Positions 13,634 to 14,429 of a DNA stretch of 15,890 nucleotides are shown piece by piece; the first letter of the stretch is position 1; the number at the start of each line of letters is the position of its first letter. The translations under genes were made by a program, and so were the position numbers. The notes under the pieces were generated by a model. It ran no database searches. It worked only from the letters and a program-made list of their open reading frames with translations, and had not been told where the DNA came from. Source of the stretch: a virus (lineage: Duplodnaviria > Heunggongvirae > Uroviricota > Caudoviricetes); the IMG/VR virus record IMGVR_UViG_2700989168_000009; one strand, given 5' to 3'.

Positions 13634-13882
13634 CTCACTGAGATTAAAGCAAAGCGCAAAATTGCGCTGGCTACATCCCTCACATCTGAGGACTGTTAAC
13701 CAGCAGGCCGGAATATATTCAGAAACTACGAAATTTTCGCAGTTTAATTACTCGTCAGCTTAATCGCTAACCCGCTCTGATATTTTCGGAAACCTCAATT
13801 TGAGGAAGTCGGCGAGGTAACTGTTTGATATTCCCGATAGCGCAAAGATGCGCGGTCGGGCAGAATGACCACCACCTCAATC

Positions 13883-13918
13883 GTGACGGAGAGTGACAAC
13901 CAGTGACACACCGTGACA
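13883..13918 (+). repeat. Four GTGAC(A) direct repeats at exact 10-bp spacing near the right end of the island; candidate recombinase or regulator binding array
   Basis: GTGAC at 13883, GTGACA at 13893, 13903 and 13913. Followed by the palindrome ACGGTT-T-AACCGT (13924-13936). Confidence 0.45.
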
Positions 13919-13970
13919 AAAAGACGGTTTAACCGTTCATTAAAAATCGACGTGATTTTGTGCTTTCCGG

Positions 13971-13995
13971 ATGACGTGGCCAACGTCATTTTTTA
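13971..13995 (+). terminator. Rho-independent terminator
   Basis: ATGACGT-GGCCA-ACGTCAT stem-loop followed by TTTTTT. Confidence 0.5.
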
Positions 13996-14035
13996 GCGAA
14001 AAATTCTGATTAAGGTCACTGGCTGAACGGTCATA

Positions 14036-14152
14036 ATGACCACGCAGACCATCGAGGCAACCATAGCGATCATCGTTACGGTTGGAGCTTTTCCGCCATT
14101 GGTGGAAAAGGTGCACATCTGGATCATCATTACGGTGATCAAGGGTATGTAA
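14036..14152 (+). CDS. Candidate small hydrophobic peptide, 38 aa (very tentative); an overlapping antisense 45-aa hydrophobic ORF lies at 13993..14130 on the minus strand
   Basis: Plus strand: MTTQTIEATIAIIVTVGAFPPLVEKVHIWIIITVIKGM. Minus strand: MMIQMCTFSTNGGKAPTVTMIAMVASMVCVVIMTVQPVTLIRIFR. No strong SD for either. Below the ORF-track threshold. Confidence 0.15.
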   Translation: MTTQTIEATIAIIVTVGAFPPLVEKVHIWIIITVIKGM

Positions 14153-14296
14153 AACCCACCAGCCTGATTAAAGGTTAACCGGAAAAAAAATCCGGTAGCC
14201 CCGTTATGGGGATCCCCATATCGACATTAACGCCCCTCATGAATTGGTGCGCTTCCCCCTGGAAAGATTACCCGCCTGTATATTTCTTGTGTCTAT

Positions 14297-14312
14297 TTGT
14301 TCCACGTTGTTT
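14297..14312 (-). repeat. Second copy of the phased GAACAA element (2 units), about 120 bp from the phoQ stop; candidate right-end recombination or regulatory site
   Basis: TTGTTCCACGTTGTT at 14298-14312 is identical to 6630-6644. The minus strand reads AAACAACGTGGAACAA. Confidence 0.5.
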
Positions 14313-14329
14313 CATACAGTGCACCGAAC

Positions 14330-14353
14330 GGTGTAGTTAATGGTGTAGTCAAT
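14330..14353 (+). repeat. Tandem 12-bp direct repeat GGTGTAGT(T/C)AAT x2
   Basis: GGTGTAGTTAAT (14330-14341) followed by GGTGTAGTCAAT (14342-14353). Confidence 0.5.
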
Positions 14354-14429
14354 TTGCGATTTTTGGCACTTTTTCAATGAAAATTGTTTGATCGAATCAA
14401 TGACTTGATGTAGTGGTAAAAGGACATAT

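What the first reader, a model, noticed from the sequence alone, without database searches (positions are those of the whole stretch)
13640..14429. Right-end accessory region dense in repeats and palindromes, probably containing attR
Seen in sequence: there is no long ORF in about 790 bp. Elements present: CCTCA-N-TGAGG palindromes at 13678-13691 and 13793-13805; the GTGACA x4 phased array (13883-13918); the palindrome ACGGTTTAACCGT; a terminator (13971-13995); a pair of overlapping hydrophobic mini-ORFs (plus 14036-14152, minus 13993-14130); hairpin ACCGGA-A7-TCCGGT (14178-14196); the perfect 12-bp palindrome TGGGGATCCCCA (14207-14218); the GAACAA element (14297-14312); and a tandem 12-mer (14330-14353). 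Inference: the island junction lies here. A hydrophobic peptide of about 40 aa next to structured RNA is reminiscent of type I toxin-antitoxin loci, but support is weak.
Basis: partly seen in the sequence, partly recalled or inferred. Interest (0 to 1): 0.45.

Follow-up and report, generated by a model that had tools for sequence, protein, structure and literature searches.

The report
Satellite island right end and attR
This 790-bp gene-free stretch is the right end of a phage-satellite island inserted just after phoQ: its last ~155 bp are the integrase attachment site, and the rest is a satellite-specific patchwork of small hairpins, IHF-site repeats and a Chi site, not a toxin-antitoxin locus.

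Summary
Every listed element is at its stated coordinates, and the region is the most hairpin-dense part of the window (13 perfect hairpins against 3.4±1.9 in shuffles).

The window is a capsid-forming PICI inserted between phoQ and roxA. E. coli K-12 has only 75 bp at this position, and 89% of E. coli genomes have the empty site.

attR occupies only the right ~155 bp:
- phased TTGTT boxes (14277-14314)
- a doubled 12-mer (14330-14353)
- a perfect IHF consensus (14395-14407)
- a 10-bp core, GGACATATTT (14422-14431), overlapping the phoQ stop codon

The TTGTT boxes recur upstream of alpA, upstream of the capsid operon and in the attL arm. I infer they bind AlpA, acting as both activator and excision factor. 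The 12-mers fit Int arm-type sites.

The remaining ~640 bp is non-coding and mosaic across more than 1,100 E. coli genomes. It is built from repeat units (an IHF-consensus box plus a hairpin whose stem sequence varies), a GTGAC×4 array, a terminator and an inversely oriented Chi site.

The type I toxin idea fails. The mini-ORFs are broken by indels and stop codons in homologues and match no protein family.

Verdict: attR of a known kind, plus a BIME-like repeat array that I did not find described. Its function is inferred, not shown.

The parts
13626..13672 (.). Repeat unit 1. The box GGTAACT-CAC-TGAGATT is a degenerate IHF-type box that overlaps the ORF93 stop codon (13631-13633). It is followed by the hairpin AGCGCAAAATTGCGCT (13653-13668). 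On the - strand the hairpin is followed by a T-rich tail, which makes it terminator-like.
   Evidence: -10.4 kcal/mol on the - strand.
13673..13811 (.). Module A. It contains hairpin CCTCACATCTGAGG (13678-13691), an imperfect hairpin around CGAAATTTTCG (13723-13745), and repeat unit 2: box CTAACCC..TGATATT (13767-13784, broken here by a 2-nt insertion) plus hairpin CCTCAATTTGAGG (13793-13805).
   Evidence: The module is shared at 85-100% identity with many other PICI right ends, in different orders.
13812..13858 (-). Repeat unit 3. It carries a perfect IHF consensus TATCAAACAGTTA on the - strand (13818-13830), followed by hairpin GCGCAAAGATGCGC (13840-13853).
13883..13918 (+). Array of four GTGAC(G/A) repeats at exact 10-bp spacing. 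GTGAC is invariant and the spacers vary in six other island types. This is a presumed protein-binding array whose partner is unknown.
13924..13936 (.). Hairpin ACGGTTTAACCGT. It is weak (-4.4 kcal/mol) and looks like a weak terminator on the - strand.
13969..13995 (+). Intrinsic-terminator-like hairpin plus U6 on the + strand. It is the first such signal downstream of the capsid/terminase/ORF93 operon.
   Evidence: -13.7 kcal/mol, z = -3.6. Conserved with the GTGAC module.
14023..14148 (.). Module C. Three consecutive hairpins: GGTCATAATGACC (14029-14041), CAACCATAGCGA-TCA-TCGTTACGGTTG (14058-14084) and CTTTTCCGCCA-T-TGGTGGAAAAG (14088-14110). They are followed by a segment (14112-14148) that exists in two alternative versions. 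The two mini-ORFs (+ 14036-14152, - 13993-14142) lie here and are not conserved as ORFs.
   Evidence: z = -3.9 on the + strand, -2.5 on the - strand.
14153..14171 (-). Block AACCCACCAGCCTGATTAA, nearly invariant (unchanged in 26 of 28 distinct homologous sequences). It contains a Chi site (GCTGGTGG on the - strand, 14156-14163) in the opposite orientation to most Chi sites in the island.
14178..14220 (.). Hairpin ACCGGA-A7-TCCGGT (14178-14196) and the 16-bp palindrome TATGGGGATCCCCATA (14205-14220). They belong to the widely shared module D (14149-14276).
14277..14314 (+). Phased TTGT(T/G) boxes at ~10-bp spacing, with TGT at 14277, 14288, 14298 and 14308. Inferred to be AlpA (recombination-directionality/activator) binding sites of the attR P arm.
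   Evidence: The same arrays occur at 1268-1332 (-), at 6599-6646 (+) and in the attL arm of L001.
14330..14353 (+). Doubled 12-mer GGTGTAGTTAAT/GGTGTAGTCAAT. Inferred to be Int arm-type sites. The centre lies 85 bp left of the core centre.
   Evidence: A co-oriented copy lies 143 bp right of the core in attL of L001, and copies occur in both arms of L091. Int carries an Arm-DNA-binding domain.
14395..14407 (+). Perfect IHF consensus AATCAATGACTTG, between the arm sites and the core.
   Evidence: The equivalent site in L001 is at 16144-16156.
14422..14431 (.). attR core / identity block GGACATATTT, shared with attL. It overlaps the phoQ stop codon (complement of 14430-14432).

Best explanation
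The interval is the right end of a capsid-forming phage-inducible chromosomal island (cf-PICI). The island is integrated between the phoQ stop codon and roxA. The interval has two functionally different parts.

(1) 14277-14431 is attR, meaning the P arm plus the core.
- Shown: a 10-bp identity block, GGACATATTT, is shared with attL.
- Inferred: Int, a tyrosine recombinase with an arm-binding domain, binds the doubled 12-mer. IHF bends the DNA at 14395-14407 so that arm-bound Int reaches the core. AlpA binds the phased TTGTT boxes.
- Because the same TTGTT arrays sit upstream of alpA, upstream of the capsid/packaging operon and in the attL arm, I propose that AlpA is both the transcriptional activator and the recombination directionality factor. 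This is the dual role known for P2 Cox and P4 Vis.

(2) 13634-14276 is a non-coding, PICI-specific modular array that forms the 3' end of the late operon.
- It is built from ~45-55-nt repeat units. Each unit has an IHF-consensus box on the - strand, followed 6-9 nt later by a short GC hairpin whose stem sequence differs between copies.
- The units are interspersed with other hairpin modules, a phased GTGAC array, a + strand terminator and one inversely oriented Chi site.
- My best reading (inferred) is that it works like a BIME/RIB element between convergent transcription units.
- In that role it would terminate and stabilise late-operon transcripts. It would also keep transcription from running across the att site: into antisense phoQ when the island is integrated, and into int when it is a circle.
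- It would bind IHF, and its repeated units would serve as homology patches through which right-end modules and occasional cargo genes are exchanged between satellites.
- The Chi site would protect, and make recombinogenic, the DNA end that RecBCD enters from the cos-proximal side.
For: Island and junction:
- Int, AlpA, TerS and TerL domains are present, and the gene order matches annotated cf-PICIs.
- K-12 has a 75-bp roxA-phoQ spacer.
- The empty site is found in 4822/5426 genomes.

Arm architecture:
- The doubled 12-mer occurs only in att arms, at -85 and +143 bp from the core centre, in three islands that use two different cores.
- This parallels the doubled motif at -81/+132 described for HE-PICIs (PMC10111431).
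- There are only 3 perfect IHF consensus matches in the 15.9 kb, and two fall in this interval.

TTGTT arrays:
- 6 matches against 0.03 expected.
- They are conserved at the same four places in L001, whose replication module differs, and in L091, whose AlpA has clearly diverged.
- They are distinct from the ori iterons GTCTACC.
- AlpA activates its own promoter, and its over-expression triggers excision (PMC6092414).

Array:
- Hairpin excess and folding z-scores.
- Units occur 0-5 times per right end, and right-end length ranges from 373 to 1126 bp.
- 34 of 41 distinct flanks have a hairpin of >=4 bp at the same offset. Eight different stem sequences are used. 61% have a stem of >=5 bp, against 4% in shuffles.
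- IHF consensus: 103 matches in 40 kb of right ends against 0 in 146 kb of upstream coding DNA.
- Modules are mosaic in 1144/5426 E. coli genomes.
- The region is absent from phage records.
- 95/112 unit-pattern matches in IMG/VR lie in loci that hold an ORF93 homologue.
- A Q-antiterminator gene sits between modules in L003.
- A - strand Chi is present in 44/51 right ends (54 minus against 10 plus). The preceding 2.5 kb has 73 plus against 7 minus.
Against: - No binding, transcription or recombination experiment exists for any of these sites. The assignment of AlpA and Int to the two motifs could be swapped.
- The homologous loci are closely related (E. coli/Shigella), so counts across loci are not independent.
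- Hairpin mismatches show no strand bias (17 G.T against 14 A.C). The data therefore cannot say whether the hairpins act in + RNA, in - RNA or in DNA.
- Most hairpins lack U-tracts on the + strand, so only 13969-13995 looks like a real late-operon terminator.
- Some islands have very short right ends or no units at all. The array is therefore not essential for maintenance of the island.
- The unit hairpins do not match the REP consensus.
- Because the units occur only in PICIs, a purely historical origin cannot be excluded: repeated recombination between copies of the ORF93 3' end.
Confidence: 0.6

Rival explanations
1. Type I toxin-antitoxin locus. One of the overlapping hydrophobic mini-ORFs (+ 14036-14152 or - 13993-14142) would encode a membrane toxin, controlled by an antisense RNA from the opposite strand.
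For: - Two overlapping ORFs with hydrophobic stretches.
- A sigma-70-like promoter match on the - strand at 14153->14126.
- Structured flanks.
- Module C also occurs on its own in other island contexts (L003).
Against: - In 28 distinct homologous sequences the + ORF shares only ~20 N-terminal codons. It then diverges through 5+2-nt indels, giving products of 28-42 aa, with I/A changed to T/N/K.
- The start context is absent in about half of the variants.
- The - ORF has in-frame stops in L003, L055 and L087 and loses its C-terminus at the module boundary at 14023.
- No SD sequence precedes either start codon.
- No Pfam, NCBIfam or PHROG hit and no Rfam hit even at E<=10.
- What is conserved is stem pairing with variable loops, which is a nucleic-acid signature.
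Confidence: 0.04
2. The array encodes one or more regulatory small RNAs. These could be sense RNAs derived from the late-operon 3'UTR, or a ~200-nt antisense RNA starting near 14119 and ending at a - strand hairpin. Such RNAs would act on helper-phage or host targets, or on the convergent phoQ mRNA.
For: - Strong single-strand structure (z = -5.2 and -3.4).
- A + strand terminator preceded by a U-rich stretch.
- Terminator-like hairpins on the - strand at 13668->13653 and 13936->13924, and a - strand promoter-like site.
- Hairpin stems are kept through changes on both sides.
- phoQ is among the top 100 Hfq-bound mRNAs in O157 Sakai.
Against: - No Rfam family matches.
- No orphan Hfq-bound sRNA was reported between 1.58 and 1.73 Mb in Sakai Hfq-CRAC, the interval where I expect phoQ and its PICI from other O157 genomes; I did not look up Sakai's own coordinates. 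Those were uninduced cells, and Sakai's variant may lack module B, so the negative is weak.
- No strand bias in wobble pairs.
- The promoter match is no better than chance (1 found, 1.4 expected).
- Module order and content are shuffled between islands. That is hard to reconcile with one defined transcript.
Confidence: 0.2
3. Selectively neutral debris. The region would be the scar tissue of repeated recombination, tandem integration and deletion between satellites that share the ORF93 3' end and the att arm. The hairpins would be leftover terminators of lost cargo genes.
For: - Extreme mosaicism and length variation, 373-1126 bp with 0-5 units.
- The left part of the unit box resembles the last codons of ORF93.
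- Some islands retain almost nothing (L058).
- A real cargo gene (Q-like) is found between modules in L003.
Against: - Hairpins are kept at a fixed offset from the box with eight different stems.
- Perfect IHF consensus matches are concentrated here, 2.55/kb against 0/kb in the adjacent coding DNA.
- GTGAC repeats are invariant while their spacers vary.
- The Chi block is nearly invariant, and - strand Chi is present in 44/51 right ends.
- Such patterns are not expected from unconstrained sequence.
Confidence: 0.15
4. The region is a packaging site (cos or pac), or the replication origin of the island.
For: - Phased repeats plus IHF sites resemble lambda cosB.
- It lies next to the terminase genes.
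Against: - No lambda-type cosN occurs in the interval.
- In classic PICIs that share this region, cosN (GGGCGGCGACCT) lies upstream of, and just downstream of, rpp. That is before ORF93, not after it.
- The modules are shared equally by cf-type and Rpp-type islands, whose packaging systems differ.
- In HK97-like systems cos is expected between HNH and terS. Here that is the G-rich gap 11259-11336 (the expectation rests on my own knowledge).
- The origin iterons (GTCTACC, two sets flanking an AT-rich stretch) are at 5516-5780, right after pri-rep. This matches the published description (PMC6092414).
Confidence: 0.03

Closest known systems
attP/attR architecture of arm-binding tyrosine integrases (lambda and P4 type), and the 'doubled motif' attP of helper-embedded PICIs (PMC10111431)
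   Same: - A short core is shared by attL, attR and attB.
- Co-oriented arm repeats occur in both arms, at about -85 and +143 bp. HE-PICIs have them at -81 and +132.
- An IHF consensus lies between the arm sites and the core.
- The integrase has an N-terminal arm-binding domain.
- An AlpA/Xis-family gene lies next to int.
   Different: - The motif sequence is GGTGTAGTTAAT, not TGTATTGCA. The HE-PICI authors reported that their motif was not found in other PICIs.
- The target is the phoQ stop codon / roxA upstream spacer rather than a prophage late gene or a tRNA.
- An additional phased TTGTT array is present in both arms.
Dual-function recombination directionality factors that bind phased direct repeats (P2 Cox, P4 Vis, lambda Xis filament). 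This comparison rests on my own knowledge.
   Same: - Three to six short direct repeats at helical (10-bp) spacing.
- The same arrays occur both in att arms and at promoters: upstream of alpA and of the late operon.
- AlpA is the Pfam relative of P4 Vis.
   Different: - Binding of AlpA to TTGTT boxes has not been shown.
- AlpA of E. coli PICIs has been described as an activator of the island cycle. The papers I read do not describe it as an excisionase with mapped sites.
BIME-1 / RIB elements of E. coli: REP hairpins flanking an IHF-binding linker, at the 3' ends of transcription units (PMC3333891 and its reference 6)
   Same: - Short GC hairpins are combined with an IHF consensus.
- The units repeat in variable number.
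- They lie at the 3' end of an operon, between convergent transcription units.
- Copy number differs between strains.
   Different: - The hairpins do not match the REP consensus. They use at least eight unrelated stem sequences.
- Each unit has one hairpin per IHF box, not two inverted REPs.
- The family appears confined to PICI right ends, next to ORF93, rather than dispersed over the chromosome.
- No RAYT-type transposase is associated with it.
Chi (GCTGGTGG) and its cos-dependent active orientation in lambda. This comparison rests on my own knowledge.
   Same: - An exact Chi octamer is present.
- Orientation bias is strong within the element.
- The single right-end Chi is inverted relative to the Chi sites in the packaging genes. 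This is what would be expected if the two ends of linear satellite DNA need protection from RecBCD.
   Different: - Wild-type lambda has no Chi site and relies on Gam.
- Here Chi density is about 5 times that of the flanking core DNA I hold.
- Chi activity was not tested.
Type I toxin-antitoxin loci (hok/sok, ldr, tisB, ibs, zor, shoB)
   Same: Small hydrophobic ORFs overlap on opposite strands, next to hairpins.
   Different: - The ORFs are not conserved.
- There is no SD sequence.
- There is no protein-family or Rfam match.
- What is conserved is the stem pairing.

Membership tests
Tyrosine-integrase attachment site (attR = P arm + core) | An identity block is shared by attL and attR and is present once in the empty attB. 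| tested here: met
   GGACATATTT occurs at window 14422-14431 and at L001 612-621. K-12 attB reads TATGGGCATATTTATTCATC: its left flank matches attL and its right flank matches attR. One position is polymorphic (A/G).
Tyrosine-integrase attachment site (attR = P arm + core) | Arm-type repeats occur in both arms, and the integrase has an arm-binding domain. | tested here: met
   The doubled 12-mer is in attR (14330-14353), in attL of L001 (748-771) and in both arms of L091. Int matches PF13356, Arm-DNA-bind_3, at 5e-18. Binding itself was not tested.
Tyrosine-integrase attachment site (attR = P arm + core) | A host-factor (IHF) bending site lies between the arm sites and the core. | tested here: met
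   AATCAATGACTTG at 14395-14407 is a perfect WATCAANNNNTTR match. Only 3 such matches exist in 15.9 kb.
Tyrosine-integrase attachment site (attR = P arm + core) | Excision regenerates attB and attP. | not testable with these tools
   This needs PCR or sequencing of induced cultures. Only indirect support is available: 89% of E. coli genomes carry the empty site.
HE-PICI-type doubled-motif attP (PMC10111431) | The motif tgTGTATTGCa is doubled, at -81 and +132 bp from the attP centre. | tested here: not met
   The geometry is similar (-85/+143) but the motif is GGTGTAGTTAAT. It works the same way but is not the same motif family.
Type I toxin-antitoxin | A small hydrophobic ORF is conserved as an ORF among homologues and has a translation start signal. 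| tested here: not met
   Indels, stop codons and non-conservative changes occur in 28 distinct homologous sequences, and there is no SD sequence.
Type I toxin-antitoxin | It matches a known toxin or antitoxin RNA family. | tested here: not met
   Pfam, NCBIfam and PHROGs gave no hit at or below E = 0.1. Rfam gave none at E<=10.
Type I toxin-antitoxin | The peptide is toxic and an antisense RNA represses it. | not testable with these tools
   This needs expression experiments.
BIME-1 / RIB repetitive elements | [quoted passage not shown] | tested here: met
   Box plus hairpin units lie directly after the last gene of the late operon. IHF consensus density is 2.55/kb here against 0/kb in the adjacent coding DNA.
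BIME-1 / RIB repetitive elements | REP consensus palindromes occur in inverted pairs, dispersed in hundreds of copies over the chromosome. | tested here: not met
   The stems are unrelated to REP and to each other. 95/112 pattern matches in IMG/VR lie in loci that hold an ORF93 homologue. Within the window the pattern has only one further match, an apparent chance hit in coding DNA at about 4987.
cos packaging site (lambda type) | cosN, GGGCGGCGACCT, with adjacent cosB. | tested here: not met
   No match with <=2 mismatches occurs in the interval. In classic PICIs cosN lies before ORF93.
Chi recombination hotspot | The octamer 5'-GCTGGTGG-3'. | tested here: met
   Present at 14156-14163 on the - strand. 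A - strand Chi occurs in 44/51 right ends. Activity was not tested.
Intrinsic terminator | A GC-rich hairpin is immediately followed by a U-tract. | tested here: inconclusive
   13969-13995 (+) folds at -13.7 kcal/mol and is followed by U6, but the consensus scan did not list it. The - strand candidates at 13668->13653 and 13936->13924 were listed, but their number is not above chance (2 found, 1.4 expected).

The most novel reading that the evidence does not exclude
The ~640 bp between ORF93 and the att arm would be a previously undescribed, satellite-specific class of repetitive element. It consists of tandem 'IHF box + variable hairpin' units together with a phased GTGAC array and an inverted Chi site. 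It would act as a dedicated recombination and insulation platform. IHF-bent, hairpin-punctuated DNA would shield the att site from late transcription. The repeated units and Chi would drive RecBCD/RecA-mediated swapping of right-end modules and cargo between co-resident satellites. This would be a homologous-recombination analogue of an integron cassette array. Coupled to this, AlpA would read one code (phased TTGTT boxes) at four places, so that excision, its own synthesis and capsid-operon expression switch on together.
Probability: 0.25. Interest if true: 0.6.

Novelty: new variant of a known kind. Interest (0 to 1): 0.42.

Why it matters
PICIs and cf-PICIs are widespread vehicles of virulence and anti-phage genes. 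Parts of this right end are found in about 21% of complete E. coli genomes, and about 11% have an interrupted roxA-phoQ site.

- Knowing the exact att core, the arm sites and the candidate AlpA boxes gives testable cis-elements for how helper-induced AlpA couples excision to late gene expression. The papers I read leave that step undefined.
- The repeat array and the oriented Chi sites suggest how satellites exchange right-end modules and how they survive RecBCD without a Gam-like inhibitor.
- The insertion also replaces the sequence downstream of the phoQ stop codon and separates roxA from phoPQ. This could alter expression of a major virulence regulator in island-bearing strains.
- If the array proves inert, the result is still useful. 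It removes a false toxin-antitoxin lead and shows that this 'accessory region' carries no cargo.

Tried and rejected
- Rfam at gathering score on the whole window, and at E<=10 on 13300-14600: nothing.
- tRNA/tmRNA scan: none, so this is not a tRNA-targeting att site.
- BLAST of the 790 bp against 50,697 phage records: no match. Against plasmids: only 4 records (none annotated; 3 of the 4 matches cover more than half of the query).
- Seven small ORFs against NCBIfam, Pfam and PHROGs: only ORF93 (outside the interval) matches, to phrog_1561 of unknown function.
- ORF93 as a possible binder of the repeats: the AlphaFold single-sequence model gives three helices at pLDDT 68. There is no PDB sequence or fold match. 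Dead end.
- Scan of one genome per species with ORF93: found only Shigella flexneri (99.9% identical region). No cross-genus set could be built for covariation.
- Strand assignment of the hairpins from G.T against A.C mismatches: 17 against 14, not informative.
- Association of modules with cf-type or Rpp-type packaging: none.
- cos site in the interval: rejected.
- TTGTT boxes as replication iterons: rejected. The ori iterons are GTCTACC at 5516-5780, and the arrays persist in L001, which has a different replication module.
- Published EHEC sRNA lists: OI-51 is the island beside phoQ in EDL933 and no sRNA is reported there. No orphan Hfq peak is listed between 1.58 and 1.73 Mb in Sakai, the interval where I expect phoQ and its PICI from other O157 genomes; I did not look up Sakai's coordinates.
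- IMG/VR pattern matches outside ORF93 loci (L111, L131, L134/148): these look like chance hits in coding DNA.
- Resemblances considered only by eye and dropped as unsupported: integron attC, lambda nut boxA/boxB, the P1 pac GATC cluster, oriT hairpin-nic and lambda sib retroregulation.
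Full report
**What the window is.** The window runs from the ATG of a tyrosine integrase to the start codon of phoQ, whose ORF (14430-15890, minus strand) fills its right end.
- The gene order is int (1-1230, with an arm-binding domain), alpA (1605-1793, PF05930), a primase-type replication gene with its origin, a capsid-protease-portal-connector-HNH-TerS-TerL operon, and a conserved 93-aa ORF (13352-13633).
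- This is the organisation of capsid-forming PICIs such as EcCIEDL933/OI-51, the island that sits beside phoQ in O157:H7 EDL933.
- A Shigella flexneri chromosome is 99.9% identical over 13340-14440. E. coli 2014C-3097 (L001) is 97-98% identical over the right half of the island.

**Checking the observation.**
- The density is not chance. There are 13 perfect hairpins (stem >=5) in 13634-14290 against 3.4±1.9 in dinucleotide shuffles, and 0 of 500 shuffles reach 13.
- This is the densest stretch in the window, where the median is 3.
- Single-strand folding gives z = -5.2 and -3.4 for the two halves.
- The GTGAC array and the tandem 12-mer are each far above expectation.

**Where the junction is.** In K-12, roxA starts 75 bp after the phoQ stop codon.
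- In L001 the left junction reads ...GTGAAGTATGGACATATTTtatcaatt. The right junction, identical in the window, reads ...ataaaaGGACATATTTATTCATC.
- The shared block GGACATATTT is window 14422-14431 and overlaps the phoQ stop codon.
- The uninterrupted site is present in 4822 of 5426 complete E. coli genomes.
- attL is not in the window, because the window begins at the int ATG.

**The attR arm (14277-14431).** Three features lie upstream of the core.
- *IHF site.* A perfect IHF consensus sits at 14395-14407. It is one of only three in the whole window.
- *Doubled 12-mer.* It sits at 14330-14353, with its centre 85 bp from the core centre. A co-oriented copy lies 143 bp on the other side of the core in attL of L001. 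Both arms of an island at the clpS-cspD site (L091), which has a different core, carry it too.
  - This geometry matches the doubled motif at -81/+132 reported for helper-embedded PICIs, though the sequence differs.
  - The same array occurs at 1268-1332 (between int and alpA, inverted), at 6599-6646 (just after a terminator and in front of the capsid operon) and in the attL arm. That is 6 pattern matches against 0.03 expected.
  - The arrays are kept in L001, whose replication module is different, and in L091, whose AlpA has clearly diverged. They differ from the origin iterons GTCTACC at 5516-5780.
- *Assignment of proteins.* AlpA activates its own promoter, and its over-expression triggers excision. 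The 12-mers occur only in att arms. I therefore infer that the TTGTT boxes are AlpA sites and the 12-mers are Int arm-type sites. None of this binding has been shown, and I found no paper that defines AlpA sites.

**The rest of the interval (13634-14276).** It is non-coding and specific to this kind of satellite.
- *Distribution.* Parts of it occur in 1144 of 5426 E. coli genomes, up to six places per genome, and never in phage records.
  - In 58 right ends, fetched from E. coli genomes, Shigella and IMG/VR mostly through ORF93, the same pieces appear in different orders and numbers.
  - The distance from ORF93 to the arm motif ranges from 373 to 1126 bp.
- *The repeat unit.* The recurring building block is TAACY-N3-TGAKMTT, followed 6-9 nt later by a short hairpin.
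  - On the minus strand the box reads as the IHF consensus. The window's copy at 13818-13830 is a perfect match.
  - Perfect IHF matches number 103 in 40 kb of right ends against none in 146 kb of the adjacent coding DNA.
  - The hairpin keeps its position but uses at least eight unrelated stems: GCGCA, GCTCA, CCTCA, CAGCC, CCCA, TTCGCC, ACGCA and TGCA. A stem of >=5 bp is present in 61% of distinct flanks against 4% of shuffles.
  - The window has three units, at 13626-13672, 13767-13805 and 13812-13858.
  - A pattern scan of IMG/VR placed 95 of 112 matches in loci that hold an ORF93 homologue. The rest look like chance.
- *Other modules.*
  - A GTGAC×4 array in which GTGAC is invariant and the spacers vary between islands.
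  - A + strand hairpin plus U6 at 13969-13995, -13.7 kcal/mol, the only convincing late-operon terminator.
  - Three consecutive hairpins in 14029-14110 whose loops vary while the stems are kept.
  - A nearly invariant block containing Chi on the minus strand at 14156-14163.
- *Chi.* It is strikingly patterned.
  - The island has 13 Chi sites (0.90/kb, against 0.18/kb in 16 kb of flanking core DNA), mostly on the + strand.
  - Across loci, the 2.5 kb before the right end has 73 plus and 7 minus. The right ends have 10 plus and 54 minus, and 44 of 51 carry a minus-strand Chi.

**The toxin-antitoxin idea.** The alignment of 28 distinct homologous sequences does not support either mini-ORF as a gene.
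- The + ORF keeps only about 20 codons. It then diverges through indels of 5 and 2 nt, and its hydrophobic residues become T, N or K.
- The minus ORF acquires stop codons in three variants and loses its end at a module boundary.
- Neither has a ribosome-binding site, and no protein or RNA family matches.
- What is conserved is stem pairing.

**What it most likely does.** The att part follows an established mechanism. The function of the array is inferred.
- The array sits at the end of the late operon. That operon converges on phoQ when the island is integrated and runs towards attP and int when the island is a circle.
- The closest analogue is the BIME-1/RIB class: hairpins plus an IHF site at the 3' ends of transcription units.
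- I therefore favour a combined role. It would act as a transcript end and stabiliser and as an insulator of the att nucleoprotein complex. It would also provide homology patches, with Chi, for exchange of right-end modules.
- A Q-antiterminator gene inserted between modules in one island (L003) fits the last point.
- Three limits apply. There is no strand bias in wobble pairs, so the acting strand or molecule is unknown. The loci are closely related. Some islands have almost no array.
- A small-RNA role remains possible, but the available Hfq-CRAC list from O157 Sakai does not support it.
- cos and ori roles are excluded.

**Verdict.** 'Accessory region' and type I TA are not supported. The att site is an ordinary member of a known kind with a new motif. 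The repeat array and the oriented Chi are a modestly novel variant whose function remains to be shown.

Noticed in passing
window 885-14163 (13 sites); L001 622-16183; L091: Chi (GCTGGTGG) is about five times denser in the island than in the flanking core DNA: 13 sites, 0.90/kb, against 0.18/kb, with 0.55 expected from shuffles. It is strongly oriented, 9 plus against 4 minus. Across 80 related loci, the 2.5 kb of packaging genes has 73 plus against 7 minus, and the orientation flips in the non-coding right end. This suggests protection from RecBCD in a satellite that has no obvious Gam-like gene.
   Followed up: partly
window 1268-1332 (- strand) and 6599-6646 (+ strand): Arrays of 5-6 TTGTT(C/G) boxes at 10-bp spacing. 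One lies between int and alpA. The other lies immediately after a terminator (6573-6598) and in front of the capsid operon. These are candidate AlpA operators at PalpA and at the late promoter.
   Followed up: partly
window 5516-5780: The replication origin lies directly after the primase gene. Two sets of GTCTACC/GGTAGAC iterons flank an AT-rich stretch, as published for E. coli PICIs.
   Followed up: no
window 13352-13633: The 93-aa ORF (phrog_1561) is always the last gene before the repeat array, in both capsid-forming and Rpp-type PICIs. Its stop codon lies inside the first repeat unit. It is predicted to form three helices and has no structural or family match. Its function is unknown.
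   Followed up: partly
L006 (O157:H7 FRIK2069) versus L007 (O157:H7 ATCC 35150): Two O157:H7 strains carry different satellites at the same phoQ site. One is Rpp-type and has the lambda-type cosN sequence (GGGCGGCGACCT) twice, in opposite orientation, at L006 1256 (+) and 2134 (-). The other is capsid-forming. They share closely related right ends.
   Followed up: partly
L003 3492-3884: An antiterminator-Q-family gene is inserted between right-end modules A and C of a PICI in STEC1585. This is the only clear cargo gene seen inside this array.
   Followed up: no
window 14068-14393: Five GATC (Dam) sites lie in about 325 bp, roughly 15/kb against 2.9/kb for the whole window. One of them is inside the 16-bp palindrome.
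   Followed up: no
window 8579-8631, 10393-10511, 10866-10915, 11356-11404: Four masked runs of N, 271 bases in total, lie inside the capsid/packaging genes. ORF calls across them are unreliable.
   Followed up: no
window 11259-11336: A G-rich gap (GACGGGGTGGGGGGCG...) lies between the HNH-side ORFs and terS. It is the likely position of the cf-PICI cos site.
   Followed up: no
window 14430-15890 (phoQ) and the attR arm: The insertion replaces the sequence downstream of the phoQ stop codon and moves roxA about 14.4 kb away. phoQ is among the top 100 Hfq-bound mRNAs in O157 Sakai (PMC4104026, Table S1A). Whether the island alters phoPQ 3'-end formation is unknown.
   Followed up: no
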